A stretch of 55,384 nt of DNA from Methanomassiliicoccales archaeon (GCA_041304605.1 JBFYNB010000002.1:1-55384), one strand, 5' to 3'; positions 4,043 through 54,941 are shown, numbered from the stretch's first letter. A program made the numbers and translations. The notes: a model not told the origin generated them from the sequence alone.

Positions 4043-4064
4043 GCTGTAATTACTTCCGGGTGGG

Positions 4065-4073: not shown

Positions 4074-4146
4074 ATGCCCACCACCTAGCCCTGTAACTTT
4101 CGATCTTGACCCTCGTGGAAAATATGGGTAAGGGGTTTGGACCGGC

Positions 4147-37484: not shown

Positions 37485-37915
37485 GCGTCGTGGTCCGCCG
37501 GATGCGCCCGGAGGATTACCCTGAAGTGGCCGACATCTGGGTGCGGTCCGGTCTCCCTTACCAGCCGCTAGGAAGGGACGGCGAGGAGCGCATATTGGAG
37601 CAGCTGGACAGGGATTCGTCGATCTACCTGGTGGCCGTAGAACGCGGAAAGGTCGTCGGGGTGGTGCTGGTCACGCACGATCTGCGCAAGGGATGGCTGA
37701 ACCGTCTGGCCGTTCCGCCGGAGGAGCAGGGGAAGGGTATCGCCAGAACGCTGGTGCGCCGGGCGGAGGAGGAGCTGTCCGCCCTGGGCGTCAACATCTT
37801 CGCCGTGCAGGTCCACCAGCACAACCATAGGTCGAGGAAGCTCTTCGCTGAGCTTGGATATCGCGAGCATGACGATATCGTCTACTGTTCCAAAAGGTCC
37901 GGACCTGAAGAGTGA
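37481..37915 (+). CDS. GNAT family N-acetyltransferase
   Basis: Its ATG overlaps the xth stop (ATGA). The product is MSVVVRRMRPEDY... with the motif A NRLAVPPEEQGKGIARTLV. The upstream part of track ORF 37154-37915 is out of frame inside xth. Confidence 0.8.
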   Translation: MSVVVRRMRPEDYPEVADIWVRSGLPYQPLGRDGEERILEQLDRDSSIYLVAVERGKVVGVVLVTHDLRKGWLNRLAVPPEEQGKGIARTLVRRAEEELSALGVNIFAVQVHQHNHRSRKLFAELGYREHDDIVYCSKRSGPEE

Positions 37916-37974
37916 ATGGTGGCATTGACAATATTATATCCTGGCGAAGCACATTCGAGGACAGAAGGGACAAA

Positions 37975-38364
37975 ATGAGCGTTGTTCTGGCTACCGACGG
38001 CAGGGCGCACACCTCCAAAGCGGTCGAATATGCTTTGGAGTACGCGCGGCTGCACCGTGAAGCGCTGTACGTTGTTTTTGTGATAGGTCCGAGGCATGAG
38101 GAGAACCGGGAGGGCACCGTGGGGGACGCTAAAAAGCACCTTGAGGAGATCAAGGTGAGGGCGACACAGCAGGGAGTGGAGACCACCACTCTGCTGGAGA
38201 CCGGCGCTCCCGCCGAGTCCGCCATCGCCGTGGCCGAGAGGGTCAACGCCTCGGCGATAATCGTTGGAACATCTGGAAAGACCGTCCTGGACAGGGTGCT
38301 CATCGGCAGCGTCTCGGAGCACGTGGTGCGCAACTCGCCCTGCACCGTGATCGTCGTCAAGTGA
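37975..38364 (+). CDS. Universal stress protein (UspA family)
   Basis: MSVVLATDGRAHTSKAVEYAL ... IIVGTSGKT.L.R.LIGSVSE.V...SPCTVIVV. Confidence 0.85.
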   Translation: MSVVLATDGRAHTSKAVEYALEYARLHREALYVVFVIGPRHEENREGTVGDAKKHLEEIKVRATQQGVETTTLLETGAPAESAIAVAERVNASAIIVGTSGKTVLDRVLIGSVSEHVVRNSPCTVIVVK

Positions 38365-38365: not shown

Positions 38366-39109
38366 CTAGAGCCGGCCGAGCGCCTCCAGAAGCGCCAGCA
38401 CCACCGTGCGCGGATGCGGCGGGCAGCCTGGGATGTAGATGTCCACCGGCAGAGCTTCGGCCACCCCGTTCCCTGCGGCGAACGTTCCGCCGAACGGCCC
38501 TCCGGATATGGCGCAGGTGCCCATGGCCGCCACCAGGCGCGGCTCCGGCGTGGCGTTGTAGGTCTTCATGAGCGCGGGCAGCATGTTGCGGGTCACCGGA
38601 CCGGTGACCAGGAGCATATCGGCATGCCTGGGAGAGGCCACTATCTTGATGCCGAAGCGTTCCAGGTCGTACATCGGGTTCGAGAGGGAGTTCACCTCCA
38701 CCTCGCAGCCGTTGCAGGATCCGGCGTCCACCTCGCGTATGGCCAGGGACCTTCCGAGAACCTTGCGCGCCTCGTCCCGCAGTTGAAGTTTCAGCTGGGG
38801 CAGCGGGACGTTGCGGCGGAGGACCAGTGATGAACGTTCAGATACCGCCGGCACCTCGACCGAGAACGTTATGGCATCCCTCGGGCAGGCCGGGAGGCAA
38901 TCGCCGCAGAACAGGCACTTTCCGACGTCCACGCTCCAATCCCCTTCGATGGAAATGGCTGAAGTGGGGCATGCTGGAACGCATTCCCCGCACCTATCGC
39001 AGCGGGAATCGGCCATGGGGGCCAGGGCGCGGCCTTGCCGCTGCAACAGCTGCAGCGGCTCGGTGACCACTTTTTTATCCCGGACCCTCCTCTCGATCAT
39101 TTCTAGCAT
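38366..39109 (-). CDS. Fused 2[4Fe-4S] ferredoxin (HycF/NuoI-like) plus NuoB/HycG-like small subunit of the Ehr-type complex
   Basis: The N-terminus has CDRCGECVPACP and CLFCGDCLPACP. The C-terminus has DAGSCNGCEVE, GTCAISGGPF and IPGCPPHP, so the four Cys of the proximal cluster are retained. Confidence 0.85.
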   Translation of the reverse strand: MLEMIERRVRDKKVVTEPLQLLQRQGRALAPMADSRCDRCGECVPACPTSAISIEGDWSVDVGKCLFCGDCLPACPRDAITFSVEVPAVSERSSLVLRRNVPLPQLKLQLRDEARKVLGRSLAIREVDAGSCNGCEVEVNSLSNPMYDLERFGIKIVASPRHADMLLVTGPVTRNMLPALMKTYNATPEPRLVAAMGTCAISGGPFGGTFAAGNGVAEALPVDIYIPGCPPHPRTVVLALLEALGRL

Positions 39110-39118
39110 GGTAACCCC

Positions 39119-40651
39119 CTATAGATCGTTCCCCGCGTACGACAGGTTGTAGCTCTTGTTGATCAGCGGGAAATCAGGCACGATGTTGCCTAGCACCGCT
39201 CTCTCCATGGTCGGCCAGTTGCAGAAGGACGGGTCGCGCACCTTGTACCTTGTGATCCTTCCATCTTGGAAGTGAACGCAATGCGCCAGCTCTCCGCGGG
39301 GCGCCTCCACCAGACCTAGGCCGAAGCCCTCCGGCGCCGGCATCTCGGAGCAGAGCTCCCCGTCGTGCAGGTGGTCCAGGCATTGCTTGACCATGCTGAT
39401 CGACTCGCGAACCTCCTCGACCTTCACGTTGAGCCGGGCCAGAACGTCGCCCTCCCGGCGCACCGGCACCAGGAACCCCAGCCGCTCGTAGGCGCCGTAC
39501 GGGAAGTCCCGGCGAGTGTCGCGGTCCCATCCCGATGCGCGGGCCACCGGACCGGTCGCCCGCAGGTCCTTGGCCATGGGCAATGAGAGCGCGCCGGTCG
39601 TCTCCGCCCGGTCCAGGAAGGACGGGGATCCATTGATGGAGTCCACCAGGGGCTCGAAGGCCAGGCCGAGGTCGACCATGGCGCCTTCCAGCAGGTCCTT
39701 CCGTTCCTGGTCCAGGTCCCGGGCCGCCCCGCCGATGGCGACGGAGCCCCAGAGCAGCCGGTGACCGGTGAGCTTGGCGTTCAATCGGAGCATGCGCTCC
39801 CTGAGCACCGAGGCTTCCGCGGCCGGCACGGCAAAGGCCACGTCGGTGGCCATTCCGCCTATGTCACCCAGGTGGTTGTAGATGCGCTCCATCTCAGCGA
39901 ATATGGCGCGCAGCAACTGCGCCCTTTCCGGGACGGGGCTGGACATCTCCACCGCCTGGCAGAAGGCCAGGGCGTGCGCTACGCCGTTGTCTCCGGAGAT
40001 CCTCTCGACCAGACGCAGCGCGCGGTTGAACGCGCAGCCTTCCAGAGCCTTCTCGACCCCCCGGTGCACGTACCCCAGCCTTATTTCCAGGTTCAATATC
40101 GGCTCGCCGGCCGTGGAGAACCGGAAGTGCCCCGGTTCGATGACCCCGGCGTGCACCGGTCCGACCGGGATCTCCAGTATGCCGTCCCCCTCCACCCTTC
40201 GGAAGTGATGGGCCTCGCCGGTGTAAGGGACCTTGGTCGTTCTGTCGAACGCGGAGGAAAGAGGATGAACATGCCGCGGCCACTCGTGCAGATGCAGCGG
40301 CCGTGGGTCGGGATGGTCCAAGGGCATGATGCCGCTCATCTCCATCATCTCCCTCTCGTACCAGTTGGCGGCCGGGACCTCGGCGGTCAGGGAAGGATAG
40401 CCCTCCCCCTCCAGCTCGCTCTCCAGGACCACGATGCCGTGGCGGGGGACCAATACCAACGCCATCACCTTGTTCTCGTTCGGAACGTAGTAAAGGCTGG
40501 AGAGCTCGCCCTCCTCCTTGCGCACCAGATGGGAGACCAGCGGACGCAGCAGGTCGTCGGGAACGGCCAGGTGCAAACGCCCGTTCCTCTCCTCGTACCC
40601 GAACGGCGGGAAGGGCAGTGAATCCAGAAGCTCGACGTTGTAATACCTCAC
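39119..40651 (-). CDS. NuoC-NuoD/HycE-like large subunit lacking all four NiFe cysteine ligands
   Basis: The NuoC part has ANWYEREMMEMSGIMPLDHPDPRPL. The HycE-like core has GPVHAGVIEPGHFRF and LGYVHRGVEK. The L1 motif reads ERISGDNGVAH (nt 39974-40006) where hydrogenases have R.CG.C..AH. The C-terminus reads PLINKSYNLSYAGNDL-stop (nt 39119-39148) where hydrogenases have S.DPC.SC.DR. Confidence 0.85.
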   Translation of the reverse strand: MRYYNVELLDSLPFPPFGYEERNGRLHLAVPDDLLRPLVSHLVRKEEGELSSLYYVPNENKVMALVLVPRHGIVVLESELEGEGYPSLTAEVPAANWYEREMMEMSGIMPLDHPDPRPLHLHEWPRHVHPLSSAFDRTTKVPYTGEAHHFRRVEGDGILEIPVGPVHAGVIEPGHFRFSTAGEPILNLEIRLGYVHRGVEKALEGCAFNRALRLVERISGDNGVAHALAFCQAVEMSSPVPERAQLLRAIFAEMERIYNHLGDIGGMATDVAFAVPAAEASVLRERMLRLNAKLTGHRLLWGSVAIGGAARDLDQERKDLLEGAMVDLGLAFEPLVDSINGSPSFLDRAETTGALSLPMAKDLRATGPVARASGWDRDTRRDFPYGAYERLGFLVPVRREGDVLARLNVKVEEVRESISMVKQCLDHLHDGELCSEMPAPEGFGLGLVEAPRGELAHCVHFQDGRITRYKVRDPSFCNWPTMERAVLGNIVPDFPLINKSYNLSYAGNDL

Positions 40652-42105
40652 GCGCTCACCCCGAACAGCTTGACGACCGCGTCCATGGCGTCCGAGACGG
40701 CCTCCGGAAGGAACAGCCCCAGCACCAGTATCGCCGAGGCCAATACGATCATAGGCAGCAGGCGAATTTTTCCTATCTCTCCCTCGGGCAGGCCTTCCTG
40801 CGGTTTCCCGGAGACCATGCCGAGGACGCGGTAGTTCATCCCGGCGAAGATCACGACGATGAGGGCGATGAAGATCCCGGCCACAAGGTACTCGCCCTGG
40901 GCCAAGGCCCCGGTGATTATGAACAGCTCGCCGATGAATATGGCGAACGGCGGTGATCCGGCTATGGCCGCTCCCCCCAGCACCAGCAGGGCGGCGGTGG
41001 CCGGCATGGTCTTTCCCAGCCCCTTGATGTCCTTCATCTCCCGGGTGCGGTACTTCTGGATCACGTTACCCGCGCCGAAGAACATGAGCGTCTTGGTGAG
41101 AGAATGCGCCAGCACGTGGAACACCGCCCCGAATACGGCGAGCGGGCCGCCCAGACCGAAGCCGAGCGCGATTATGCCCATGTGCTCCACGCTGGAGAAG
41201 GCCAGGAACCGCTTGAGGTCCCTCGAGGTAAGTATGAAGGCCGTGGCGATGGCCAGCGAGAAAAGGCCGAAGAACAACAGCAGCGAGGAGGAGAAGCCGG
41301 GCACGGCCTCGCTGGCCAGTATGTGCACCCTGAGCACGCCGTACATGGCGCAGTTCAGCAGGACGGCGGAGAGCAGGGCGCTGATGGGAGTGGGCGCCTG
41401 GCTGTGGGCGTCCGGGAGCCAGGTGTGCATGGGAGCCAGCCCGGCCTTGGTGCCTAGCCCCACTAGGATGAAGATGAACGATACCTTCAGCAGGGCGGGG
41501 TCCAGCTGCCCGGCGACCGAACGCAGGACGGACCAGTCCAAGGTGTCGGCGTTCTCGCCCAGGGCGTCCACCGATGAGGCGTACAGCAGGATGATGCCCA
41601 GAAGGGCCAGGGTTATTCCCACGGAACATATTATGAGGTACTTCCAGGAGGCCTCCATGGCCTCGCTCTTCTTGTAGAAGCCGACCAGGAACGCCGAGAC
41701 CAGGGTGGTGCCTTCCACGGCGATCCACATCAGTCCGAGGGAGTCCACCACGACCACCATCAGCATGCTGAAGGCGAAGAGGTGCAGCAGCACGTGGTAG
41801 TAGCGCAGGTCCCGGAGGTTGGCCTCCCCCTCCTTCCGGTCATGATCCAGGTACTCCACCGAGTACAGGCTGACCAGGGCGGTTATGACCACGATCACGG
41901 CCATGAAGAGGCCGGACAGCGGGTCCAGGTACCACAGACCGGAATCTACCGGACCTTCGAAGAAGGCCTGGTAGCAGTAGGGCATCGCCACCAGGGCGGC
42001 GACCAGGGACCCGGCCACGCTGAAGACGTATATGGCCCTCTCGCTGCGGGATATGCCGCAGAGCAAGGCGGTCACCAGTGGGACCAGCAGCAGTAGCTCG
42101 ACCAT
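40648..42105 (-). CDS. NuoN/NuoM/HyfF-like antiporter-type membrane subunit
   Basis: 485 aa and about 14 TM helices, with proton-pump family motifs (..WLPDAH..APTP.SALLS..). Its stop overlaps the next gene's start by 4 nt. Confidence 0.8.
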   Translation of the reverse strand: MVELLLLVPLVTALLCGISRSERAIYVFSVAGSLVAALVAMPYCYQAFFEGPVDSGLWYLDPLSGLFMAVIVVITALVSLYSVEYLDHDRKEGEANLRDLRYYHVLLHLFAFSMLMVVVVDSLGLMWIAVEGTTLVSAFLVGFYKKSEAMEASWKYLIICSVGITLALLGIILLYASSVDALGENADTLDWSVLRSVAGQLDPALLKVSFIFILVGLGTKAGLAPMHTWLPDAHSQAPTPISALLSAVLLNCAMYGVLRVHILASEAVPGFSSSLLLFFGLFSLAIATAFILTSRDLKRFLAFSSVEHMGIIALGFGLGGPLAVFGAVFHVLAHSLTKTLMFFGAGNVIQKYRTREMKDIKGLGKTMPATAALLVLGGAAIAGSPPFAIFIGELFIITGALAQGEYLVAGIFIALIVVIFAGMNYRVLGMVSGKPQEGLPEGEIGKIRLLPMIVLASAILVLGLFLPEAVSDAMDAVVKLFGVSA

Positions 42106-42106
42106 G

Positions 42107-42766
42107 TTAACCCCTCAGCCTCCTCAGGAAGGTGGTGTCCAGGGTCTCGAAGGTCTGGTTGATGCGGTAGGCGAATATGCCCATGATCAGCACGGCCATG
42201 AAAACGTCGAAGAATATGCCTATCTCCACGATGAGGGGCATGCCATACGTCGTGGAGATAATACCCAGGAACAGCCCGTTCTCCATCATCAGCAGCCCCA
42301 CCATCTGGGTCATGGCCTTGCGGCGGCTGATCATCATGAACATGCCGATGAACACCACGGCCAGGGATATGGCCAGGCAGTTGCGGGTGACCGCTTCCGC
42401 CGAGGATATCAGCGGTTCGGTGACGTAATAGGCCACGATGACCAGCCCGCCGGAGATGAGCAGGGAGGCGGGTATGCCCACCAGGGGCTCGATCTCCCGG
42501 CGCACCTTGAGGCGATCGATGGAGTACATCAGGAAGCGCGGGATGATGATGCCCTTGACCACCAGGGTTAGCGCGGCCACGATGTATATGTGCTCGGAAC
42601 CGGTGTAATGCGCCAGCACCGCCGAGATGGCCGCCAGCATGATGGACTGGAAGGCGAAGGAGCGGACCAGCTGCCCCATGCGGGTGCTGGCCATGACCAG
42701 CAAAGACACCAGCAATATGGCCGCGGCCAGGAAGTTGATGGTGTCGATGCTCAGCAGGTCGGCCAT
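42107..42766 (-). CDS. HyfE-like small membrane subunit
   Basis: 219 aa and about 7 TM helices. Size, position and pattern (..VKG.IIPRFL......L.VRREIEP..) resemble hydrogenase-4 component E. Confidence 0.65.
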   Translation of the reverse strand: MADLLSIDTINFLAAAILLVSLLVMASTRMGQLVRSFAFQSIMLAAISAVLAHYTGSEHIYIVAALTLVVKGIIIPRFLMYSIDRLKVRREIEPLVGIPASLLISGGLVIVAYYVTEPLISSAEAVTRNCLAISLAVVFIGMFMMISRRKAMTQMVGLLMMENGLFLGIISTTYGMPLIVEIGIFFDVFMAVLIMGIFAYRINQTFETLDTTFLRRLRG

Positions 42767-42775
42767 TGGATCACC

Positions 42776-43717
42776 TCACAGAATGTAATAGGACATCACC
42801 GCCAGCAGGGACAACGTGAATGAGATGGTCAGAAGGTTGGGCAGACGGAACAGGCGCATCTTGGCCATGACCGACTCCACTAACGCCACGCTGATCGACA
42901 GCGCCAGTAGCTTCAGGGCAATGGACCCGACGCCGATGGCCAGCTCGCCCGCCCCCGTGCCCAGGGCGATGCCCCAGGGGAAGAAGACGTTGCTCAGGAT
43001 TACCATGAACATGGTGAGCCGGACGTAGGAGGCCATCTCCATCAGCGCCAGCTCCCTTCCCGAATACTCGAGCAGCATGCCCTCGTGGACCATGGTCAGC
43101 TCCAGGTGGGTGGCCGGATTGTCGAACGGCACCCGGGAGTTCTCCGCCATGAGCGAGATGAATATGGCGGCCGAGGCCAGGAACAGCGTGGGCGAAAGAC
43201 CGTTAAGCCCGAGCCCGGCGAAGTGATCGGATATCGCCGACAGATCGGTGGTGCCCGATATCGCGGCGACCGAGAATATGGACAGGAGCAATGTTGGTTC
43301 CACAATGGCCGATATCATCATCTCCCGGCTGCTGCCCATGCCCCCGAAGGAGCTTCCCCCCTCGAGGCCGCCGAGGACCATCATGAAGCGGAAGAGGCCG
43401 AGGACGTAGATCACCGCCACCATGTCCCCCACGCCGCCGGAGGGCCCGGTGGCGAACACCGGCACCATCACGGCCAGGCAGACCATGGCCCCCAGGCACA
43501 CGTAGGGAATGACCAGGAACAGCCAGGAGGCCTCCCTGGAGGCCACGGTGGACTTGCGCAACAGTTTCCACAGGTCACGGTACGGCTGCAGGACGCTCGG
43601 TCCCTGCCGGCACTGCATCCAGGACTTGACCTTTCTGATGAAGCCGGTGAGCAAAGGCGACAGCAGGAGGATGAACAGCACCTCCGTCAGGGTCAGCAGG
43701 AGATCGATCAGCTGCAT
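42776..43717 (-). CDS. NuoH/HycD/HyfC-like membrane subunit
   Basis: 313 aa and 8 TM helices, with ..R.GPS.LQPY.DL.KL..K.. near the N-terminus and ..RVPFD..E.E.E.V.G...EYSG.. in the conserved loop. Confidence 0.8.
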   Translation of the reverse strand: MQLIDLLLTLTEVLFILLLSPLLTGFIRKVKSWMQCRQGPSVLQPYRDLWKLLRKSTVASREASWLFLVIPYVCLGAMVCLAVMVPVFATGPSGGVGDMVAVIYVLGLFRFMMVLGGLEGGSSFGGMGSSREMMISAIVEPTLLLSIFSVAAISGTTDLSAISDHFAGLGLNGLSPTLFLASAAIFISLMAENSRVPFDNPATHLELTMVHEGMLLEYSGRELALMEMASYVRLTMFMVILSNVFFPWGIALGTGAGELAIGVGSIALKLLALSISVALVESVMAKMRLFRLPNLLTISFTLSLLAVMSYYIL

Positions 43718-43721
43718 GGCC

Positions 43722-45710
43722 TCACCTCAGCACCACCAGGAGGATTATCAGGGTGATCATCAGGTAGGCCAGGTAGGCCTGTATGCTTCCGCTCTGCATC
43801 CGCTTCACGCGCATGGCCACGGCGAGCGTGGCGTTGACCGAGGGCCGATAGAGGTAGGTTGTGAATATCTCGGGAAGCACCTGCTCGAAGCGCACCGTCC
43901 GGATGTATAGGGAGGGCCGCGGTTCCTCCTTGACCTCGGTGTGCGGGCGGTAGACCTGCTCGAACACCCTCAGCAACGGCTGGGAGAAACCGGTCGGGGT
44001 GTACTGGGTCCGGCGGTCCAGTGGCGTTCCGCAATCCCAGGTGTCGCTCCGCACCACCTTTCTTTTTCCGGTCGCCCGCAGGACCAGGAACACGATCAAT
44101 ATCGCGGAAGCCAGGAGGGCGCTCAGGCCCAGGGGGTTCAACCCGCCCTGGTGCAGGAAGTTGATGCTGAACCCTTCGATCACCTGGACGCCGGCGGCTC
44201 CGACCAACGGGGAGACCGCGGACGTCAGTTCTTCGAGCAGCGGGAACGATGCCACGCCCAGCAGGAGGCAAAGTGCGGCCAACGGTACCAGGGGGAACAG
44301 CTCGGCCCGCTCCAGCGGCCGCGGCTGGCAAGCCCCTTTGGACCGCGGGCGGCCCAGGAAGGTGAAGCCGAAGAGGCGCAGGTAGGCCGCGGCGGCTATT
44401 GCCGTACATAGAGCCATGACCGCTATAGCCAGCGGCAACGCGATCCGCATCAAAGGATCGGTTATCGGCTCGGCGTGCATCAGGGACTTGAACATCGCCC
44501 ATTCCGAGACGAAGCCCGAGAAGGGCGGGAGGGCGGCCACGGCAAGCGTTCCGAACAGGAAGGCGGCGGAGAGGCCGGGCATCGTTCGCGCTAGTCCGCC
44601 AAGCTTCTCCAGGTCCCACTCTCCGGCCGCCCGGCGTACCGTTCCAACGCCCATCAGCAACAGCGCCTTGAACACGGTGTGGTTGACAAGATGGAACATG
44701 GCGGCCATTATGGCGAAGGCCGCCGGCTCCGCCGCCCCGTAGGACTGGAAGAGCATGGCCGCGCCGACGGTGAGCAGGATCAGGCCCATGTTCTCCATGC
44801 TGGAGAACGCCAGAACGCGCGAGCCGTCCCTTTGCACCAGGGCCTGCCAGGCGGCCCAGAGGGCGGTCATGGCCGCCAGCCCCATCACCAGCAGCGAGAG
44901 GAGGTGCTGCTCTCCCACCCCGACCATGTCGAAGATGATGCGGACCAGCACGAGCACGGCCACGTTGGAGGCGGCCGTGGAGAGCAGGGCGGTGACGGTG
45001 GAAGGGGAGCGGCTGTACAGGTCAGGCATCCAGATGTGGAAGGGCAACAGTCCCAGCTTGCTCCCGAAACCCAGGAACACCATGATGATGACGACGGCGG
45101 ACGAGACGGCGCCAAGCGATGCCGACAGACCGTGCATCTCGCTCAGACGGACCTCGCCGGATGATACGGACAGGAAAGCCAGAGCGGCGATGATCAGGGC
45201 CGCCCCGAAGTGGGTTATCGCCAGATACTTCCAGCCGGCGGCGGTGTCCTGGTCCTCGCGGGAGCCCCAGGCCCCTAGGAAGGAGGTCAGGGACATGGCC
45301 TCCCAGGCCACCAGGAGCAGGAGCACGTGGTCGGCCACCATGGCCAGCAGGACCGAGAGCATGAACAGGTTGAAAAGCGAGGCCCCCCGGGAGGTTATCC
45401 CTTCCCTGGAGAAGAGCGAGTACATGGCCACGCAGGCGAAGGTGAGCGAGGTTATGAGAAGCACCAACGCGCCCAATGCGTCGAGGCGGATGGCGTAATT
45501 TCCCATGGCCGATGGGACATCCAATACGAAAGTGGACGTTCCGTTAACAAGGACCAGCACTGACCAGAAGGCAGCGCTTACGGCCGAGACCGCCGAGCAC
45601 AGGTAGCTGTACACCCGGTACTTTTCGCTCCCCAACAGGAGCGCCAGAGCTGCGCCAAGTAATGGCAGGAACAGCATCAGGGCGGGCAATACGGCTGATA
45701 ACATTGGCAA
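43722..45710 (-). CDS. NuoL/HyfB/MnhA-like antiporter-type membrane subunit
   Basis: About 660 aa and more than 15 TM helices, with motifs ..WE.MSLTSF.L.. and ..H.WMPD.Y...P..V.ALLS.. The start is the TTG at 45710 or the ATG at 45704. This is the first gene of the six-gene operon. Confidence 0.8.
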   Translation of the reverse strand: MPMLSAVLPALMLFLPLLGAALALLLGSEKYRVYSYLCSAVSAVSAAFWSVLVLVNGTSTFVLDVPSAMGNYAIRLDALGALVLLITSLTFACVAMYSLFSREGITSRGASLFNLFMLSVLLAMVADHVLLLLVAWEAMSLTSFLGAWGSREDQDTAAGWKYLAITHFGAALIIAALAFLSVSSGEVRLSEMHGLSASLGAVSSAVVIIMVFLGFGSKLGLLPFHIWMPDLYSRSPSTVTALLSTAASNVAVLVLVRIIFDMVGVGEQHLLSLLVMGLAAMTALWAAWQALVQRDGSRVLAFSSMENMGLILLTVGAAMLFQSYGAAEPAAFAIMAAMFHLVNHTVFKALLLMGVGTVRRAAGEWDLEKLGGLARTMPGLSAAFLFGTLAVAALPPFSGFVSEWAMFKSLMHAEPITDPLMRIALPLAIAVMALCTAIAAAAYLRLFGFTFLGRPRSKGACQPRPLERAELFPLVPLAALCLLLGVASFPLLEELTSAVSPLVGAAGVQVIEGFSINFLHQGGLNPLGLSALLASAILIVFLVLRATGKRKVVRSDTWDCGTPLDRRTQYTPTGFSQPLLRVFEQVYRPHTEVKEEPRPSLYIRTVRFEQVLPEIFTTYLYRPSVNATLAVAMRVKRMQSGSIQAYLAYLMITLIILLVVLR

Positions 45711-45894: not shown

Positions 45895-46404
45895 ATGACG
45901 GATAACGTGGACGTCCTGGGCATTTTGGCGGCGGCGCGGCAGATAGAGCTGTTCGGAATAGAGTTCTATCGCCGGTTCAGCGAGTGCGTCAGCGACGAGA
46001 ACGGGGCCGCTCTGCTCAGGGGATTGGGAAGGGACGAGGAGCAGCACAAGGAGCACGTGGAGAGGGAGATGCGCCGCGTAGCTCCGGACAAGGACCCGAA
46101 GGACGTGAGCCCGGGCCGCTCTCTGCTCGGCATAGTGCCGGAGAAGGCGTTCCCCTTCCCACCGGACCGCTGCATGACGCTGGAGGATGAGATCAAGGCC
46201 CTGGAGGTGGGCATCCAGGTCGAGATATCGTCGGCCAAGATGTACCGCGGCGCCGCAATGATGGTCGAGGAGCCGGGGGTGAAGCGGCTTCTGCAGAAGT
46301 TAACGGAGATAGAGGACGGGCACCGAAAACTGTTGGAGGATAGCATGCAGTTGCTGCGCGACAAGGGCGCCTGGTACGGATACTCCCCGATATTGGAAGG
46401 TTGA
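45895..46404 (+). CDS. Ferritin-like diiron protein (rubrerythrin family)
   Basis: 169 aa with two E...ExxH diiron half-sites (QIELFGIEFY ... RDEEQHKEH and LEVGIQVEISS ... IEDGHRKL). Confidence 0.7.
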   Translation: MTDNVDVLGILAAARQIELFGIEFYRRFSECVSDENGAALLRGLGRDEEQHKEHVEREMRRVAPDKDPKDVSPGRSLLGIVPEKAFPFPPDRCMTLEDEIKALEVGIQVEISSAKMYRGAAMMVEEPGVKRLLQKLTEIEDGHRKLLEDSMQLLRDKGAWYGYSPILEG

Positions 46405-46456: not shown

Positions 46457-46586
46457 TCTGACCCCCTTTGGCCATCCCGATGGATGGGCTGAAAAAACTT
46501 TAATACCCGTTGGACATCCATAGAGCACAATCTAAACGGGGTTGGGCATCCGTCCACCCCCCTCACTTGGGCTCAGAGGTATCGCA

Positions 46587-47771
46587 ATGGTCAAATTACC
46601 GAACATCGACAGAGAGGTTCAAGCTTGCCTTCAATGCGGCTACTGCATTCGCACCTGCGAGACGTGGAGGCAGACGCCTTGGGAGTCCGTTACCCCCAGG
46701 GGTAAGGTATTTTACATCTCACAATTGGGCAAGCGCACCGCCATAGACAAGCTGCTGGGCCGCAAGGTCGAGATCGACGATGAGTTCGTCGAGGCGCTGT
46801 TCATGTGCACCACCTGCGCCGCTTGCTCCACCGTTTGCCACGTGGGCATCGACTTCGCCGAGTTCTGGGAGAAGGTCAGGGAGTGGTGCATCGACAACGG
46901 TCACGGCCCCATGCCCGCCCACATCAAGATCAAGGAGCGACTGGAGGAAGGCAGGAACCCGTACGGGGAGCCGATGGAGAAGAGGGGCGCCTGGTATCCG
47001 GCGGTCCCCAAGGCCGACAACCCGGACGTGGTGTTCTTCGCCGGCTGCACCGCCTCCTACCGCATGCAGAACCTGGCCAAGGCCAGCGTCATATTCCTCA
47101 ACCGCTGCGGCGTTTCGACCAACATCATGGAGGGCGACGAGTGGTGCTGCACCTCTCCCGCGCTGAGGACCGGGCAGACCGGGCTTACCTACCGCTTCGC
47201 CGAGCACACCATCGGCACCGTCGAGCACATGGGGGCCAAGGCCATGGTCACCGCCTGCGCCGGCTGCTACAAGACCACCGTGCACGACTACGGCAAGTTC
47301 TACTCCCACCCGACCTTCGAGGTGTTCCACTTCGCCCAGTACGCCAACAAGCTGCTGAAGGAGAAGAAGGTCAAGTTCACCAAGGAGATCAAGGCCAAGG
47401 TCACCTACCATGACCCGTGCCATCTCGGACGCCACGCCAAGGTGTACGACGAGCCGCGCGAGGTCATAAAGTCCATACCGGGAGTGGAGTTCGTGGAGAT
47501 GAAGAACATCCGCGAGAAGTCCCGGTGCTGCGGGGCCGGCGGCGGCTACAAGAGCCAGTACAACGAAATGGCCACGGCGATAGCGGTAGAAAGGGTCAAG
47601 GAGGCCATAGAAACAGGAGCGGACATCCTGGCCACCACCTGCCCGTTCTGCGTGCTCAACATGCAGCAGGCGGCCAAGAAGATCGGGGCCAAGATCAAGG
47701 TCTTGGACGTCTCCGAGATGCTGGCCATGGCCACCGAGCCAGAGGCCCCGGCCGAGCCGGCGAAGCAGTGA
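46587..47771 (+). CDS. hdrD: HdrD-like heterodisulfide reductase subunit (2x[4Fe-4S] plus two CCG domains)
   Basis: CLQCGYCIRTC and CTTCAACSTVC ferredoxin motifs. The two CCG-type Cys clusters are FFAGC..(n)..WCC..(n)..ACAGC and HDPCH..(n)..RCCGAGGG..(n)..TCPFC. The ATG at 46587 has AGAGGT 7 nt upstream; the track start at 46542 is less likely. Confidence 0.8.
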   Translation: MVKLPNIDREVQACLQCGYCIRTCETWRQTPWESVTPRGKVFYISQLGKRTAIDKLLGRKVEIDDEFVEALFMCTTCAACSTVCHVGIDFAEFWEKVREWCIDNGHGPMPAHIKIKERLEEGRNPYGEPMEKRGAWYPAVPKADNPDVVFFAGCTASYRMQNLAKASVIFLNRCGVSTNIMEGDEWCCTSPALRTGQTGLTYRFAEHTIGTVEHMGAKAMVTACAGCYKTTVHDYGKFYSHPTFEVFHFAQYANKLLKEKKVKFTKEIKAKVTYHDPCHLGRHAKVYDEPREVIKSIPGVEFVEMKNIREKSRCCGAGGGYKSQYNEMATAIAVERVKEAIETGADILATTCPFCVLNMQQAAKKIGAKIKVLDVSEMLAMATEPEAPAEPAKQ

Positions 47772-47834: not shown

Positions 47835-49547
47835 ATGGAACCGGATGAGCCCGCGGCGAGCCGCGCCGCCCAGTATCTCAGGCGGGGATATCAGGGATTG
47901 GTCACCGAGGACTTCCGGGACTACCTTAAGAAATGGATCCCGCTGTCCGTGCTCATCGGCCTGTTCGCAGGCCTGGGCGCCATGGCCTTCCAGTGGCTGC
48001 TGATGGGCATCTGGCACGCTTCGTACGACGCCACGGACCTGCCCTGGTACGTCCGTTTCCTCCTGCCGGCCGCGGGTGGGCTGCTGGCCGGTGTGATCAT
48101 CTCCAGGCTGTCCCCGGAATCGGCCGGGGGCGGCACGGGGTACGTCATTGAGGCCATACACCACCGGGGAGGCAAGGTCCCCCCACGCTCTGGACTGTAC
48201 AAGATAGTGGTCTCCGCCCTGACCATCGGGACCGGGGGGAGCGGCGGGCGGGAAGGCCCTATCATGCACATCGGGGCGGCGGTGGCCTCCTTCTTCGGAG
48301 GACGGTTGAAATTGAGGAAGGGGGACATGCGCACCTTCGCCATCGCCGGAGCGGCGGCCGGCCTGTCGGCAGTGTTCCGGGCTCCCCTGGGCGCGGCGAT
48401 CTATGCCATCGAGGTGCCGTACAAGAACGACCTGGAGCCGGGGGCGGCCATTCCATCCATGATCGCCAGCGTGGTGTCCTATCTGGTCTTCGTTTCCTTC
48501 AATGGCTACGAGCCGCTCTTCAAGGTTCCGGCCATAATCATGGACCTCGACCTGGTCATCGTCCTGGCGATCGTGCTGCTGGGGGCGGCCATCGGCCTGG
48601 CGGGTCGGCTGTTCATATTCACCATGCACACCACGGAAAGGCTGACCAAGCGCAGCCGCCAGCCCCTGGCCTCCAAGATAATGTACGGAGGGCTGCTGGT
48701 GGGATGCATCGGGCTCTTCGTCCCGGAGGTCCTGGGTCTGGCGGAGGACGACATCGCCAGGCTCGTCGAGGGCTCGGCCGCCTCGGTGGCCTTTCTACTC
48801 GTTATGTTCTTGGCCAAGATGCTGGCCACCAGTTTTACCGTGGGGACCGGCGGCAGCGGGGGGGTGTTCTTCCCCTCGCTGATGATGGGCGGGGCGTTGG
48901 GAACCGCATTCGCCATTATGCTTGACCTAACCCCCGTTCCGTTGTTCGCCATCGCCGGCATGGGGGCCATGATGTCCGGCGTTTCCAAGACCCCCATCGC
49001 CGCCTCGGTGCTCATGGCCGAGGTCGTCGGGGGTTACACGATATTGATCCCGGTCATGCTCGCTTCCGTCATCGCCTACATCGTGACCGGCGACCAAACT
49101 CTCTTTAAGAACCAGGTGGCCAGGCGCCCGTTCGTTTACGACCCCGCCGCCCTGGACGAGGTCCCGGTGGAAAAGGTAATGAGGGGGGACCCTATCACCC
49201 TGACCCCCGAGATGAGCGTGGCGGACGCGCGGAAGGGGACCGCCTGCGAAACTCATTACCTCTATCCAGTAGTTGACGCCGGAGGAAAGGTCCTGGGCGT
49301 GGTGCTCAGGGAACAGCTCGAGGGACACAAGGAACCAGAGGCCCGGGTGGATACGCTCATGGTCACACATTTCGAGAAGGTGCAGGCCGGCACCTCGGCC
49401 TACCAGGCGTTCGAGGACATGAACGCCAAGCAGATCTCGCGCATGCTGGTGGTAGGGCATGACGACGGGATACTGCTGGGCACCCTGACCCGCATCGACC
49501 TTATGGAGTACCTAGAGCACAAAGATGAGGAACATCAGCTATATTGA
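47835..49547 (+). CDS. ClC-type chloride channel/antiporter with two C-terminal CBS domains
   Basis: GREGPIMHIGAA and GGSGGVFFPS selectivity motifs, about 10 TM helices, and a CBS pair in the last 130 aa or so. Confidence 0.88.
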   Translation: MEPDEPAASRAAQYLRRGYQGLVTEDFRDYLKKWIPLSVLIGLFAGLGAMAFQWLLMGIWHASYDATDLPWYVRFLLPAAGGLLAGVIISRLSPESAGGGTGYVIEAIHHRGGKVPPRSGLYKIVVSALTIGTGGSGGREGPIMHIGAAVASFFGGRLKLRKGDMRTFAIAGAAAGLSAVFRAPLGAAIYAIEVPYKNDLEPGAAIPSMIASVVSYLVFVSFNGYEPLFKVPAIIMDLDLVIVLAIVLLGAAIGLAGRLFIFTMHTTERLTKRSRQPLASKIMYGGLLVGCIGLFVPEVLGLAEDDIARLVEGSAASVAFLLVMFLAKMLATSFTVGTGGSGGVFFPSLMMGGALGTAFAIMLDLTPVPLFAIAGMGAMMSGVSKTPIAASVLMAEVVGGYTILIPVMLASVIAYIVTGDQTLFKNQVARRPFVYDPAALDEVPVEKVMRGDPITLTPEMSVADARKGTACETHYLYPVVDAGGKVLGVVLREQLEGHKEPEARVDTLMVTHFEKVQAGTSAYQAFEDMNAKQISRMLVVGHDDGILLGTLTRIDLMEYLEHKDEEHQLY

Positions 49548-49558
49548 ACGGTAAGGAC

Positions 49559-53825: not shown

Positions 53826-53915
53826 GCTAATGCGCTCAATCCCTTGCAGGATAAAAAACCATTGCCCGACCGATGATATTTTATCGGCAGGGGGGATTCA
53901 GCTTTGGGTACGGAC

Positions 53916-54941
53916 ATGCAAGAGAAGGAGTGGACCTATGCCAAGGCCGGAGTGGACATCGACCGGAAATCGCAGGCCATATCAGCCCTGGTAGGCCATC
54001 TCAAGTACCGGCGCTCTGGACGGGGAACCATGATCGACCTTCCCGGCCAGTTCACCGGGCTCATCGACATGGGAGATCACATTCTTACATTGGCTACCGA
54101 CGGGGTCGGCACGAAGCTGCTGGTGGCCGAGGCGCTGAACAAGTGGGACACCGTGGGCATTGACTGCATGGCCATGAACGTCAATGACACCATATGCGTC
54201 GGCGCGGAGCCGATCGCCTTCGTTGATTACATAGCGATCGACGAACCGAACCCGGAGATCACGGACCAGATCGGAAAGGGGCTGAACGCGGCAGCGGAGA
54301 TGGCCAACGTGGACCTGGTAGGCGGGGAGGTCGCCGTCCTACCTGAAATGGTGAAGGGAGTGGACCTTTCCGGCACCGCCCTCGGGCTTCTGGACAAGAA
54401 AAAGATGGTAACAGGCGCGGATATCGAGGAGGGCGACGCCATCATCGGCCTCATCTCATCAGGGGTGCACTCCAACGGAATGACCCTGGCCCGAAAGGTC
54501 CTGTCCTCGGCCGGGATATCGTTGCAGGACGAGGTGGACGGGCTCGAGGGAAGCGTGGGCATGGAGCTGCTCACTCCGACCCACATCTACGTCCGCGATG
54601 TGCTCAAGGTCGTCGACGCGGTCAAGGTCACCGGAATGGTGGACGTGACCGGCGGGGGCCTGAAGAACTTCGTCCGTTTGAAGAAAGGCTTGGAGTACCG
54701 CATCACCGACCCCATCGAACCGCAACCGATATTCCAGGCCATTCAGCGCATAGGCGGCGTTACGGACCACGAGATGTACAAGACCTTCAACATGGGCATG
54801 GGCTACGGCATAGTTCTGAGGCCGGAGGGGGTCGAGGAAGCGCTTTCCATCCTCAAAGGAAAAGCAGAGGTGGTCGGCAAGGTCGTGAAGGGATCTGGCT
54901 GCGGGGTCCCCCGGCTAAAAGTGCACTACGACACCTATTAG
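53916..54941 (+). CDS. purM: Phosphoribosylformylglycinamidine cyclo-ligase (AIR synthase)
   Basis: TYAKAGVDID, ATDGVGTKL and DCMAMNVNDTICVGAEP motifs. The ATG at 53916 is preferred over the TTG at 53904. Confidence 0.9.
   Translation: MQEKEWTYAKAGVDIDRKSQAISALVGHLKYRRSGRGTMIDLPGQFTGLIDMGDHILTLATDGVGTKLLVAEALNKWDTVGIDCMAMNVNDTICVGAEPIAFVDYIAIDEPNPEITDQIGKGLNAAAEMANVDLVGGEVAVLPEMVKGVDLSGTALGLLDKKKMVTGADIEEGDAIIGLISSGVHSNGMTLARKVLSSAGISLQDEVDGLEGSVGMELLTPTHIYVRDVLKVVDAVKVTGMVDVTGGGLKNFVRLKKGLEYRITDPIEPQPIFQAIQRIGGVTDHEMYKTFNMGMGYGIVLRPEGVEEALSILKGKAEVVGKVVKGSGCGVPRLKVHYDTY

What the first reader, a model, noticed from the sequence alone, without database searches (positions are those of the whole stretch)
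38366..45710. Six-gene Hyf/complex-I-like membrane module whose catalytic subunit has lost all four NiFe cysteines (Ehr-type complex)
The operon order is HyfB/NuoL-like, HyfC/NuoH-like, HyfE-like, HyfF/NuoN-like, fused NuoC-NuoD/HycE-like, then a ferredoxin-NuoB fusion, with overlaps or gaps of 10 nt or less. This mirrors group-4 membrane-bound hydrogenases. In the large subunit the N-terminal ligand motif R.CG.C..AH reads ERISGDNGVAH (Cys->Ser and Cys->Asn, nt 39974-40006). The C-terminal DPC.SC.DR reads NLSYAGNDL followed directly by the stop (Cys->Ser and Cys->Gly, nt 39119-39148). There is no C-terminal maturation extension and no hyp genes are nearby. The NuoB-like subunit keeps all four Cys of its [4Fe-4S] cluster, and two antiporter-like subunits are intact. 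It therefore cannot be a NiFe hydrogenase. It is probably still a redox-driven ion pump with an unknown electron acceptor site. Cysteine-less relatives have been grouped as energy-converting hydrogenase-related (Ehr) complexes in comparative analyses, and none has a demonstrated function to my knowledge. In a methanogen whose accepted energy-conserving module is an Fpo-like complex, a second module of this kind is unexplained.
Basis: partly seen in the sequence, partly recalled or inferred. Interest (0 to 1): 0.8.

Follow-up and report, generated by a model that had tools for sequence, protein, structure and literature searches.

The report
Hydrogenase-like membrane complex without nickel-iron site
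This is an intact, conserved six-gene relative of membrane-bound hydrogenases and complex I that has lost its metal catalytic site (an "Ehr" complex); the type is already known, also in this order of methanogens, but what it does is still unknown.

Summary
Six co-directional minus-strand genes (38366-45710) encode HyfB-, HycD/NuoH-, HyfE-, HyfF-, NuoC-NuoD/HycE- and ferredoxin-NuoB-like proteins. Aligned to E. coli HycE, all four NiFe cysteines are replaced (S219, N222, S504, G507). The small subunit keeps its [4Fe-4S] cysteines.

It is not decay. dN/dS is 0.03-0.24 for all six genes. The replacement motifs (ER[IV]SGD..., ...NLSY[AS]GND[LM]-stop) occur in all 120 best homologues. The proton-path, E-channel and antiporter residues of FHL are largely retained.

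The window comes from a Methanomassiliicoccales archaeon. The family also occurs in M. luminyensis, Methanoperedens and ANME-2. It belongs to a large Cys-less radiation beside group 4a/4f hydrogenases.

This is the known Ehr class (Coppi 2005; Marreiros 2013). An ehr complex was already reported in a Methanomassiliicoccales MAG (Speth & Orphan 2018), so this is a new member of a known kind. Its function is still unknown.

My best guess is a ferredoxin-oxidising ion pump with a non-proton acceptor. The divergently encoded HdrD-like protein is only a candidate partner. Two additions from this work:
- The M. luminyensis orthologue is transcribed.
- A family-specific Asp sits in the former metal site.

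The parts
43722..45710 (-). HyfB/HycC/NuoL-like antiporter-like subunit (EhrA-type). 662 aa from the TTG at 45710. The likely true start is the ATG at 45704 (660 aa). It carries the C-terminal ND3-type loop with the conserved Cys (W-D-C-G).
   Evidence: NCBIfam NF005086 1.5e-138. The best PDB match is HycC 7z0s_C, 2.8e-43. HycC E135, E294, H328, H332, K336, E391 and C537 are conserved. The TM7 Lys is present in GFGSKLGLLPFH.
42776..43717 (-). HycD/HyfC/NuoH-like membrane anchor subunit (313 aa).
   Evidence: Pfam NADHdh 7.6e-46. The best PDB match is HycD 7z0s_D, 3.8e-44. E-channel residues Y102, R108, F122, E130, E138, E189 and E206 of HycD are conserved.
42107..42766 (-). HyfE-like small membrane subunit (219 aa; NuoK/ND4L-related C-terminal half).
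   Evidence: NCBIfam NF008556 'hydrogenase 4 membrane subunit' 1.7e-36, full length. Pfam Oxidored_q2 gives a weak match. This is the most conserved gene of the operon (dN/dS 0.03-0.14).
40648..42105 (-). HyfF/NuoN/MbhH-like antiporter-like subunit (485 aa).
   Evidence: NCBIfam NF005044 1.1e-142. The best PDB match is MbhH 6cfw_H, 2.3e-45, with the TM5 Glu (AVEGTT), TM7 Lys (GTKAGLAPMHTWLPDAH) and TM12 Lys (HSLTKTLMFF) aligned.
39119..40651 (-). EhrL: fused NuoC-NuoD / HycE-like large subunit (510 aa) without any of the four NiFe cysteines.
   Evidence: Pfam PF00329 + PF00346 + a PF00374 fragment. HycE 7z0s_E matches at 2.9e-72 by sequence. The AF2 model has pLDDT 84.9 and pTM 0.89, and its best structural match is 7z0s_E with TM 0.91.
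39974..40006 (-). Former L1 NiFe motif: ERISGDNGVAH (residues 216-226). HycE C241 becomes S219 and C244 becomes N222. It contains the family-specific Asp221.
   Evidence: S219, G220, D221 and H226 are invariant in 121/121 close homologues. Position 221 is Asp in 86/112 Cys-less cluster representatives but A/V/I/G in the Cys-bearing ones.
39119..39148 (-). Former L2 NiFe motif plus stop: NLSYAGNDL* (residues 502-510). HycE D529 becomes N502, C531 becomes S504 and C534 becomes G507. There is no C-terminal extension.
   Evidence: L503, S504, Y505, G507 and D509 are invariant in the 49-sequence alignment A1 and near-invariant in the 121-sequence set.
38366..39109 (-). EhrS: fusion of a HycF/NuoI-like 2x[4Fe-4S] ferredoxin domain (about residues 30-90) with a NuoB/HycG/MbhJ-like [4Fe-4S] small subunit (about residues 113-247).
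   Evidence: Pfam Fer4 domains + Oxidored_q6 2.9e-32. MbhJ matches at 4.5e-36 and HycG at 5.3e-36, with all four cluster Cys aligned (hydrogenase-type CxxC, not the complex-I CC). The two parts are separate genes in M. luminyensis, Methanoperedens and ANME-2. They are fused in L001-L007, L017 and L018.
37912..38364 (+). Universal stress protein gene, tail-to-tail with the operon (1 nt between the stop codons). It is a conserved neighbour; its role is unknown.
   Evidence: Pfam Usp 1.1e-23. A Usp gene lies directly after the small-subunit gene in every Methanomassiliicoccales locus examined. In Methanoperedens and ANME-2 it is co-directional and overlaps the NuoB-like gene. It is absent in L020.
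45895..46404 (+). Rubrerythrin/ferritin-like di-iron protein gene, divergent from the operon. It is a conserved neighbour within Methanomassiliicoccales.
   Evidence: Pfam Rubrerythrin 6.8e-10. It is present in the same position in L003-L007, L012, L017, L019 and L021.
46542..47771 (+). HdrD/TfrB-like protein (two CCG domains plus a 2x[4Fe-4S] domain). It is a candidate partner only; the link is inferred, not shown.
   Evidence: Pfam CCG 1.5e-35 and Fer4_8. NCBIfam TfrB scores 238 bits, below its cut-off. Its M. luminyensis counterpart lies seven accession numbers before EhrL (WP_019178467), where 'hdrD1' (WP_019178460) of Borrel 2014 Table 6 is expected. The current accession of that gene is WP_201798809.

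Best explanation
The six genes encode an Ehr-type (energy-converting-hydrogenase-related) complex. This is a complete, selectively maintained descendant of the Hyf/FHL branch of membrane-bound [NiFe] hydrogenases in which the metal site is gone.

Shown:
- The peripheral arm has three [4Fe-4S] clusters. Two sit in a HycF/NuoI-like domain that is fused here to the NuoB-like subunit, which carries the proximal cluster.
- A NuoC-NuoD/HycE-like large subunit has the HycE fold.
- The membrane arm has a HycD/NuoH-like anchor, HyfE and two antiporter-like subunits.
- The four NiFe cysteines are replaced by a conserved polar pocket: S219-G-D221-N222 and N502-L-S504-Y505-A-G507-N-D509-L-COOH.
- The residues that FHL and complex I are proposed to use to couple active-site charge to the membrane are kept. 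These are beta1-beta2 loop H167/E172, canopy R452, proton path H260/R371/E413, the E-channel residues, the ND3-type loop Cys and the antiporter Glu/Lys/His residues.

Inferred:
- The complex oxidises reduced ferredoxin. Electrons pass over the three clusters to the remodelled pocket and leave to an acceptor that is not H+.
- The charge or protonation change around E172/D221 drives ion translocation through HyfC, HyfB and HyfF, as proposed for FHL, MBH and complex I.
- In Methanomassiliicoccales the only obvious sink is the CoM-S-S-CoB heterodisulfide. The leading candidate is therefore the HdrD-like protein encoded divergently next to the operon. A lipid-soluble carrier is the alternative.

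Sub-probabilities:
- Ehr-type, non-hydrogenase, functional complex: about 0.95.
- Ferredoxin-oxidising ion pump: about 0.5.
- HdrD as the acceptor: about 0.15-0.2.
For: The structural model is (HycE TM 0.91).

Loss of the Cys and conservation of the substitutes: 121/121 close homologues and 112 Cys-less cluster representatives.

Retained coupling residues were mapped through a validated HycE/HycD/HycC alignment, using the residue lists in PMC9474812. They are conserved in 93-107 of 112 Cys-less representatives (103-107 for all but the loop His), about as strictly as in the 26 Cys-bearing ones.

Purifying selection: dN/dS is 0.03-0.24 for all six genes against three orthologues, with no internal stops.

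Expression of the orthologue: M. luminyensis CZDD1 WYS_RS12245-12265 are at 8-275 FPKM across the three conditions. EhrL is at 79-275 (27 in the single electrochemical culture) against FpoD at 127-723 in the same RNA-seq tables (bioRxiv 10.1101/2024.03.29.587405, Dataset S2).

The HdrD-Rbr / Ehr / Usp arrangement is kept in Methanomassiliicoccales lineages down to about 52% EhrL identity, while the far side changes: Ech in Methanomassiliicoccus, GNAT-ExoIII-MFS here.

The family occurs in organisms that must re-oxidise ferredoxin: methyl-reducing methanogens, Methanoperedens and ANME-2.
Against: No acceptor site or partner was identified.

- The canonical quinone ligands of complex I are absent. 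Nqo4 H38 aligns to Ile and Y87 to Gly.
- The 'canopy' Asp, reported as strictly conserved in hydrogenases and complex I, is Asn or Ser here.
- The HdrD adjacency may be plain vertical synteny. The RlmE - FAA hydrolase - Lhr - HdrD flank is also conserved between the window and M. luminyensis.
- hdrD1 exists in genomes that apparently lack Ehr. By accession numbering it sits next to echA1 in 'Ca. M. intestinalis'.
- Methanoperedens, ANME-2 and L020 have no HdrD next to Ehr.
- The proximal cluster is buried at the NuoB/NuoD interface, so direct electron transfer to a soluble HdrD is not obviously possible.
- Transcript levels of the orthologue are modest. For the membrane subunits they are about 0.13-0.15 of the Fpo-like counterparts.
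- No experiment on any Ehr complex was found.
Confidence: 0.5

Rival explanations
1. It reduces a membrane-soluble carrier (a quinone- or methanophenazine-like lipid) in the way complex I, Fpo or Fqo do. That would make it a ferredoxin:lipid-carrier oxidoreductase.
For: The module has the complex-I-like architecture with a NuoH-like subunit. Family members occur in Methanoperedens and ANME-2, which from general knowledge use menaquinone or methanophenazine. Borrel 2014 reports genes for a liposoluble carrier in Methanomassiliicoccales (PMC4153887). The canopy Arg and the H260/R371/E413 path are shared with complex I.
Against: Both canonical quinone head-group ligands are missing: Nqo4 H38 aligns to Ile171 and Y87 to Gly220. 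The beta1-beta2 loop is of the hydrogenase type (IEPGHFRF). The small subunit has the hydrogenase CxxC, not the complex-I tandem CC. All subunits are closest to FHL, where the corresponding HycD cavity is hydrophilic (PMC9474812).
Confidence: 0.17
2. It does not catalyse net electron transfer at the large subunit. Either it is a redox-gated cation/proton antiporter, with the Fe-S clusters acting as a sensor of the ferredoxin pool, or it runs in reverse and uses the ion gradient to push electrons onto ferredoxin for biosynthesis.
For: No acceptor site can be recognised. The antiporter-like subunits and HyfE are the best-conserved part. Usp and rubrerythrin-like stress-type genes are conserved neighbours. 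From general knowledge, Ech and Eha run in reverse for anabolic ferredoxin reduction.
Against: The proton-path and canopy residues that serve active-site chemistry are as conserved as in true hydrogenases, which is hard to explain for a mere sensor. Reverse operation still needs an electron donor at the same unidentified site. There is no direct evidence either way.
Confidence: 0.15
3. It is a functional [NiFe] hydrogenase of the Hyf/FHL-2 type whose ligands were missed through misalignment.
For: All subunits match Hyf/Hyc families best. Public annotations call relatives 'Ni,Fe-hydrogenase III large subunit' or 'hydrogenase large subunit'.
Against: The alignment to HycE was validated at 12 named residues. 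All four Cys positions are S/N/S/G, here and in 120/120 close homologues. There are no alternative CxxC pairs. No hyp or hycI genes were found among the scanned ORFs of the window. No NCBIfam hydrogenase equivalog reaches its cut-off.
Confidence: 0.01
4. It is a decaying remnant of a hydrogenase operon (a pseudogene set).
For: The catalytic ligands are lost. Expression of the M. luminyensis and Methanoperedens counterparts is low.
Against: All six ORFs are intact in every complete, well-assembled locus examined. The only split gene is HyfB in L020, possibly an assembly error. dN/dS is 0.03-0.24. The replacement residues themselves are invariant across lineages as distant as Methanomassiliicoccales and ANME-2. 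Transcripts are detected in M. luminyensis.
Confidence: 0.02

Closest known systems
Ehr (Ech-/energy-converting-hydrogenase-related) complexes, first described in Geobacter sulfurreducens (GSU0739-0745; Coppi 2005) and defined as a group by Marreiros et al. 2013. An ehr complex was also reported in the Methanomassiliicoccales MAG 'MALP' (Speth & Orphan 2018).
   Same: The subunit set matches: NuoL-like EhrA, HyfE-like EhrC, large subunit EhrL, small subunit EhrS, plus NuoH-like and further antiporter-like subunits (PMC7894505). The NiFe CxxC motifs are lost while the small-subunit cluster is retained. The group lies close to group 4f hydrogenases (PMC10284858; my tree). Function is unknown.
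   Different: Here the 2x[4Fe-4S] domain is fused to the small subunit. The neighbours are HdrD-like, rubrerythrin-like and Usp genes, rather than the formate dehydrogenase / NuoEF proposed for some bacterial Ehr (PMC6349859).
E. coli formate hydrogenlyase (Hyd-3, HycCDEFG; PDB 7Z0S) and hydrogenase-4 / FHL-2 (HyfBCEFGHI)
   Same: FHL is the best sequence match for the large subunit and for the HyfB- and HyfC-like subunits. HycG is about equal with MbhJ for the small subunit, and MbhH is the best match for HyfF. FHL is also the best structural match of the large subunit (TM 0.91). The gene order and the HyfE/HyfF subunits are as in hyf. The proton path, E-channel and ND3-type loop residues are conserved.
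   Different: It has no NiFe cysteines, no C-terminal maturation peptide and no HycI/Hyp genes nearby. There is no HycB/HyfA or FdhF electron-input module. HycE D192 is Ile and the canopy D529 is Asn.
Group 4f-like [NiFe] hydrogenases (the nearest Cys-bearing relatives found)
   Same: They share about 45% identity, the ...NKSF[NE]L.Y...D[RL] C-terminus without an extension, and the IEPGH loop.
   Different: Those proteins keep C-G-x-C and L-C-Y-x-C. In an NJ tree of 137 cluster representatives, the 26 four-Cys sequences and two three-Cys variants form one clade. The Cys-less ones form a separate, larger radiation. This is an NJ tree without support values.
Pyrococcus furiosus MBS/MBX (PDB 6U8Y) and MBH (6CFW)
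   Same: They are hydrogenase-derived, ferredoxin-oxidising, ion-translocating complexes. MBS is the precedent for a relative that reduces something other than protons.
   Different: Similarity is much weaker (MbsL 2.6e-22 against HycE 2.9e-72). There are no Mrp-type MbsA-G/MbhA-G subunits, and the membrane arm is organised differently.
Fpo-like complex of Methanomassiliicoccales / respiratory complex I
   Same: It is a modular complex-I superfamily machine, presumed to be ferredoxin-driven in this order, and it co-exists in the same genomes (M. luminyensis has fpoABCDHIJKLMN, PMC4153887).
   Different: There are no separate NuoA/J genes. The NuoB cluster motif is CxxC instead of CC. The quinone ligands H38/Y87 are absent. 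By analogy with FHL, the antiporter-like subunit is expected to be attached in the FHL/MBH orientation. FpoD and NuoD NCBIfam models score far below their cut-offs.

Membership tests
Ehr complex (energy-converting hydrogenase-related) | The large subunit is homologous to group 4 [NiFe] hydrogenase large subunits / NuoD. | tested here: met
   PF00346 9.9e-44 and a PF00374 fragment. HycE matches at 2.9e-72. Structural TM 0.91 to 7z0s_E.
Ehr complex (energy-converting hydrogenase-related) | The large subunit lacks the L1/L2 CxxC NiFe-binding motifs. | tested here: met
   HycE C241/C244/C531/C534 correspond to S219/N222/S504/G507. The same holds in 120/120 closest homologues.
Ehr complex (energy-converting hydrogenase-related) | The small subunit (NuoB-like) keeps the four Cys of the proximal [4Fe-4S] cluster. 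| tested here: met
   GSCNGC ... GTC ... PGCPP aligns with MbhJ and HycG.
Ehr complex (energy-converting hydrogenase-related) | Membrane subunits are present: NuoH-like plus NuoL/M/N-type antiporter-like subunit(s), and HyfE-like EhrC. | tested here: met
   The Geobacter Ehr subunit list is in PMC7894505.
Ehr complex (energy-converting hydrogenase-related) | No hydrogenase activity; redox-coupled ion translocation. | not testable with these tools
   This needs biochemistry. Only indirect evidence is available: conserved coupling residues.
Group 4a [NiFe] hydrogenase (Hyf / FHL-2) | Four Cys ligands of the NiFe centre in the large subunit. | tested here: not met
Group 4a [NiFe] hydrogenase (Hyf / FHL-2) | A C-terminal maturation peptide cleaved by a HycI/HyfK protease, with Hyp maturation genes. 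| tested here: not met
   The protein ends at ...GNDL, aligned to ...C.DR. None of the window ORFs scanned matched a Hyp or HycI family. The rest of the genome could not be checked.
Group 4a [NiFe] hydrogenase (Hyf / FHL-2) | An electron-input module: HycB/HyfA polyferredoxin and formate dehydrogenase H. | tested here: not met
   The operon has six genes only, and no such genes flank it.
Respiratory complex I / Fpo-type quinone or phenazine reductase | Quinone head-group ligands: the beta1-beta2 loop His (Nqo4 H38) and the Tyr (Nqo4 Y87). | tested here: not met
   They align to Ile171 and Gly220 (Nqo4 alignment).
Respiratory complex I / Fpo-type quinone or phenazine reductase | Tandem-Cys ligation of cluster N2 in NuoB, and separate NuoA/J/K subunits. 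| tested here: not met
   The cluster motif is CNGC, the hydrogenase type (the contrast is described in PMC9474812). There are no NuoA or NuoJ genes. HyfE only partly resembles NuoK.
MBS/MBX-type sulfane-reducing complex | An Mrp-derived multi-subunit Na+/H+ module (MbsA-G) joined to the MbsJKLMN core. | tested here: not met
   Only HyfB/C/E/F-type membrane genes are present. MbsL similarity is weak (2.6e-22).

The most novel reading that the evidence does not exclude
The Ehr complex, together with the adjacent HdrD1-type protein, may be a second energy-converting ferredoxin:heterodisulfide oxidoreductase of Methanomassiliicoccaceae, or a condition-specific one. Part of the membrane-bound ferredoxin:heterodisulfide activity now credited to 'Fpo-like + HdrD' would then belong to it. 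Mechanistically, the invariant carboxylate pocket (D221/E172 with S219, N222, S504, Y505) that replaces the NiFe centre would serve as a metal-free, redox-linked proton-loading site next to the proximal cluster. This would show that the complex-I superfamily coupling mechanism needs neither a metal site nor a quinone.
Probability: 0.12. Interest if true: 0.75.

Novelty: new member of a known kind. Interest (0 to 1): 0.4.

Why it matters
Ehr complexes are widespread. Of the 137 cluster representatives (50% identity) among the best 150 matches that cover both motifs, 111 lack the full Cys set. They sit at the evolutionary joint between membrane-bound hydrogenases and complex I, and no function has been shown for any of them.

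In H2-dependent methyl-reducing methanogens, energy conservation rests on how reduced ferredoxin is re-oxidised. A further complex-I-type module is therefore relevant to the bioenergetic models of Methanomassiliicoccales, Methanoperedens and ANME-2. In Methanoperedens the equivalent cluster appears to have been counted as an 'Ech hydrogenase'.

The practical value of this re-examination is threefold. It points to a cultured organism, M. luminyensis, that carries a transcribed orthologue. It gives a defined set of conserved pocket residues to mutate. It names one candidate partner, HdrD1, to test. The locus itself is not a new kind of system.

Tried and rejected
- **Misalignment of the Cys motifs:** rejected. 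The HycE mapping reproduces 12 named residues exactly.
- **Pseudogenisation:** rejected by dN/dS.
- **HypE nearby:** the AIRS-domain gene at 53904-54941 is PurM (TIGR00878, 347 bits).
- **HdrD adjacency as proof of function:** downgraded. It is conserved within Methanomassiliicoccales, but so is a block of unrelated genes on the same side (RlmE, FAA hydrolase, Lhr). It is absent in Methanoperedens, ANME-2 and L020.
- **Context of distant relatives:** uninformative. L008 is labelled Saccharibacteria, contains a masked stretch, and has no small-subunit gene after EhrL; its neighbours are GDH, PGI, ROK and TGT. L009 (a betaproteobacterium) is another Cys-less variant (FAATT...SAAEND). L010 and L011 are true hydrogenases.
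- **Genome-wide scan:** Phyletic co-occurrence with Fpo, HdrD or quinone biosynthesis could not be computed.
- **Structure:** the tool returns no coordinates, so the pocket or cavity geometry could not be examined. The beta1-beta2 loop region (158-184) and the last five residues are modelled with low confidence.
- **Promoter and terminator scan:** the sigma-70 and intrinsic-terminator scan is not meaningful for an archaeon and gave nothing above chance.
- **RNA families:** Rfam found nothing in the window.

Full report
**1. What is there**

The minus strand between 38366 and 45710 carries six tightly packed ORFs (junctions +4, +9, +1, -4 and +9 nt). Pfam and NCBIfam identify them as follows:
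- HyfB/NuoL-like antiporter-like subunit: 662 aa, NF005086 1.5e-138.
- NuoH/HycD-like anchor: 313 aa.
- HyfE: 219 aa, NF008556 1.7e-36.
- HyfF: 485 aa, NF005044 1.1e-142.
- Fused NuoC-NuoD/HycE-like large subunit: 510 aa.
- A 247-aa protein with two 4Fe-4S ferredoxin motifs in front of a NuoB-type domain.

No NCBIfam equivalog reaches its curated cut-off for the five larger proteins. The family is therefore related to these enzymes but distinct from them. The more probable start of the first gene is the ATG at 45704, which has GAGG 8 nt upstream and is where orthologue alignments begin at residue 2-3.

**2. The missing metal ligands**

phmmer against the PDB puts E. coli HycE (7z0s_E) first, at 2.9e-72. 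Its printed alignment shows two replacements:
- RVCGICGFAH becomes RISGDNGVAH.
- ...SLDPCYS becomes ...SYNLSYA, followed by GNDL and the stop.

I transcribed this alignment and checked it against twelve residues named in the FHL structure paper (PMC9474812). All twelve fall on the expected HycE letters, so the register is right. The four Cys (C241, C244, C531, C534) are S219, N222, S504 and G507.

The small subunit keeps C-x2-C, GTC and GCPP aligned to MbhJ and HycG. That is the hydrogenase-type ligation, not the tandem Cys of complex I. The eight Cys of the N-terminal ferredoxin domain are present.

**3. Not chance, not decay**

- **Close homologues.** All 120 best homologues from the 5.8-billion-protein search lack the Cys. 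They carry ER[IV]SGD[NST]..H and NKS[FYL][NS]LSY[AS]GND[LM]-stop. In a 49-sequence alignment, S219, G220, D221, H226, L503, S504, Y505, G507 and D509 are invariant.
- **Selection.** Against three orthologous loci (91, 79 and 72% EhrL identity), dN/dS is 0.03-0.24 for each of the six genes. There are no internal stops.
- **Fold.** An AlphaFold2 model of the large subunit is confident (pLDDT 84.9, pTM 0.89). Its best PDB match is HycE (TM 0.91).

**4. What is kept**

Using the residue lists of the FHL paper, the following are conserved in the window proteins:
- beta1-beta2 loop His188 and Glu193.
- Canopy Arg478.
- The His284-Arg395-Glu437 proton path.
- HycD Y102, R108, F122, E130, E138, E189 and E206.
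- HycC E135, E294, H328, H332, K336, E391 and the ND3-type loop Cys537.

Across 112 Cys-less cluster representatives, the large-subunit positions are conserved in 93-107 cases. That is about as well as in 26 Cys-bearing relatives.

The changes are the four Cys, the canopy Asp (D529 becomes Asn or Ser) and HycE D192 (Ile). There is also one gain: an Asp at position 221. It is invariant in the close family and present in 86/112 Cys-less representatives, but never in the 26 four-Cys representatives. The complex-I quinone ligands are not present either (Nqo4 H38 aligns to Ile, Y87 to Gly).

**5. Who has it, and the neighbourhood**

The best genomic matches are Methanomassiliicoccales MAGs (95% to Methanomassiliicoccaceae UBA472). 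The same family is found in:
- M. luminyensis (WP_019178467, 52% identity).
- Methanoperedens and ANME-2.
- Other, unidentified metagenomic contigs (for example L020).

In Methanomassiliicoccales the arrangement is HdrD-like / rubrerythrin-like, divergent from HyfB-C-E-F-EhrL-(Fd)(NuoB), followed by a convergent Usp. This is kept down to about 52% identity. In the genus Methanomassiliicoccus a true Ech (CGIC...DPCICCTDR) follows.

The M. luminyensis HdrD-like gene lies where 'hdrD1' (WP_019178460) of Borrel et al. 2014 is expected from the accession numbering. Its current accession is WP_201798809.

In Methanoperedens and ANME-2 there is an extra HyfB paralogue. The ferredoxin and NuoB parts are separate genes, Usp is co-directional and overlapping, and no HdrD is adjacent. 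The ferredoxin-NuoB fusion is specific to the lineage of the window.

The HdrD link must be read with care, for two reasons:
- The flank RlmE - FAA hydrolase - Lhr - HdrD is also syntenic between the window and M. luminyensis.
- By accession numbering, hdrD1 sits next to echA1 in 'Ca. M. intestinalis', which appears to lack Ehr.

**6. Place in the superfamily**

A search of 1.84 billion cluster representatives gave 1033 hits at E<=1e-30. Of the 137 best representatives that cover both motifs, 26 have all four Cys. In a neighbour-joining tree, these 26 form one clade together with two three-Cys variants. This clade includes E. coli-type HycE/HyfG with DPC..C and a C-terminal extension. It also includes a type ending NKSF.LCY.C.DR without extension, which I take to be group 4f-like.

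The other 111 lack at least one Cys and form a larger, diverse radiation. The query lies in an 'S-N-S-G' subclade. The tree is NJ without support values, so the single-loss reading is tentative. It agrees with published trees that place Ehr next to group 4f (PMC10284858).

**7. What is known**

- Ehr complexes were named in G. sulfurreducens and defined as a class by Marreiros et al. 2013, as cited in PMC6147122, PMC6349859 and PMC7894505.
- Speth & Orphan 2018 already noted an ehr complex in a Methanomassiliicoccales MAG and called its function unknown.
- Arshad et al. 2015 described an 'Ech hydrogenase lacking EchD' in Methanoperedens with low expression (RPKM 52-80). I infer from the fused NuoC-NuoD gene that this is most likely the same complex; accessions were not compared.
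- In Geobacter, Ehr subunits are abundant on formate.
- I found no functional study of any Ehr.

**8. Expression of the orthologue**

In the RNA-seq tables of M. luminyensis CZDD1 (bioRxiv 10.1101/2024.03.29.587405, Dataset S2), the cluster WYS_RS12245-12265 is transcribed at 19-275 FPKM in the co-culture and H2 cultures. Individual genes fall to 8-27 FPKM in the single electrochemical culture.

Levels are about 2.3-fold higher in the DIET co-culture than under H2 (log2 -1.1 to -1.4). Comparison values in the same tables:
- EhrL: 79-275 FPKM.
- FpoD: 127-723 FPKM.
- mcrA: about 2,000-26,000 FPKM.
- The adjacent HdrD-like gene RS12230: 186-1094 FPKM.

The complex is therefore expressed at a modest level in a cultured relative.

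**9. Interpretation**

The identification as an Ehr-type complex that is not a hydrogenase and is functional is secure.

The mechanism is inferred. Ferredoxin-derived electrons cross three [4Fe-4S] clusters to a remodelled, carboxylate-containing pocket. Charge or protonation changes there drive the conserved E-channel and antiporter machinery.

The acceptor is unknown. A heterodisulfide route through HdrD1 and a lipid carrier are the two candidates. A non-catalytic (redox-gated antiporter) or reverse mode cannot be excluded.

**10. Verdict**

The system belongs to a described class that has already been seen in this order, so it is a new member of a known kind. It is of moderate interest because the function of the class is a real open question. 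The cultured M. luminyensis offers a way to test it.

Noticed in passing
window 32176-33156 (+) and about 33159-33467 (+): There is an hgcA-hgcB mercury-methylation gene pair. HgcA matches NCBIfam NF040863 at 385.6 bits (cut-off 275). A small 2x[4Fe-4S] ferredoxin ending in ...CGEDCCR follows directly. The same pair lies in the syntenic locus L017.
   Followed up: partly
window 12017-13123 (+) and 13358-14362 (+): A DOMON + cytochrome b561-domain membrane protein is followed by a second DOMON protein. This is a possible haem-b membrane redox protein in an order usually described as lacking cytochromes.
   Followed up: no
L012 13195-18348 (M. luminyensis), L019 10865-15849, L021 11426-16458: In the genus Methanomassiliicoccus, a true six-gene Ech hydrogenase (EchE with CGIC and DPCICCTDR) lies directly after the Ehr-Usp block. 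A Cys-less and a Cys-bearing complex-I-type module are therefore neighbours. The window lineage has GNAT-ExoIII-MFS there instead.
   Followed up: partly
L014 2341-4368, L015 2093-4120, L016 2710-4737: Methanoperedens and ANME-2 versions of the cluster carry an additional HyfB-like antiporter subunit gene upstream. An acetyl-CoA synthetase gene lies close by, on opposite sides in the two lineages. Their Usp gene overlaps the end of the NuoB-like gene, which suggests co-translation.
   Followed up: no
window 275-4084 (-) and 4147-8751 (-): Two very large ORFs (1269 and 1534 aa) contain fibronectin type III repeats. They are presumably surface proteins.
   Followed up: no
window 20225-20944 (+) and 20984-21712 (+); also 45895-46404 (+), 37912-38364 (+): The window holds several oxidative-stress-type genes: a hemerythrin-rubredoxin fusion, a nitroreductase, a rubrerythrin-like protein and Usp. 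The last two flank the Ehr operon and are conserved there.
   Followed up: partly
window 51157-51248 (+): ARAGORN calls a tRNA-Ser(CGA) inside the 918-aa Lhr-type helicase ORF (49544-52300). This is probably a false call, or the ORF boundaries need checking.
   Followed up: no
representative proteins P0225, P0238, P0242, P0249, P0253, P0265, P0201, P0232 and others: Some branches of the Cys-less radiation keep one Cys of the L1 motif (ER.CGD...) or have a Cys at other pocket positions (NLSYCG, LCNKS). This suggests several different remodelled sites rather than one.
   Followed up: no
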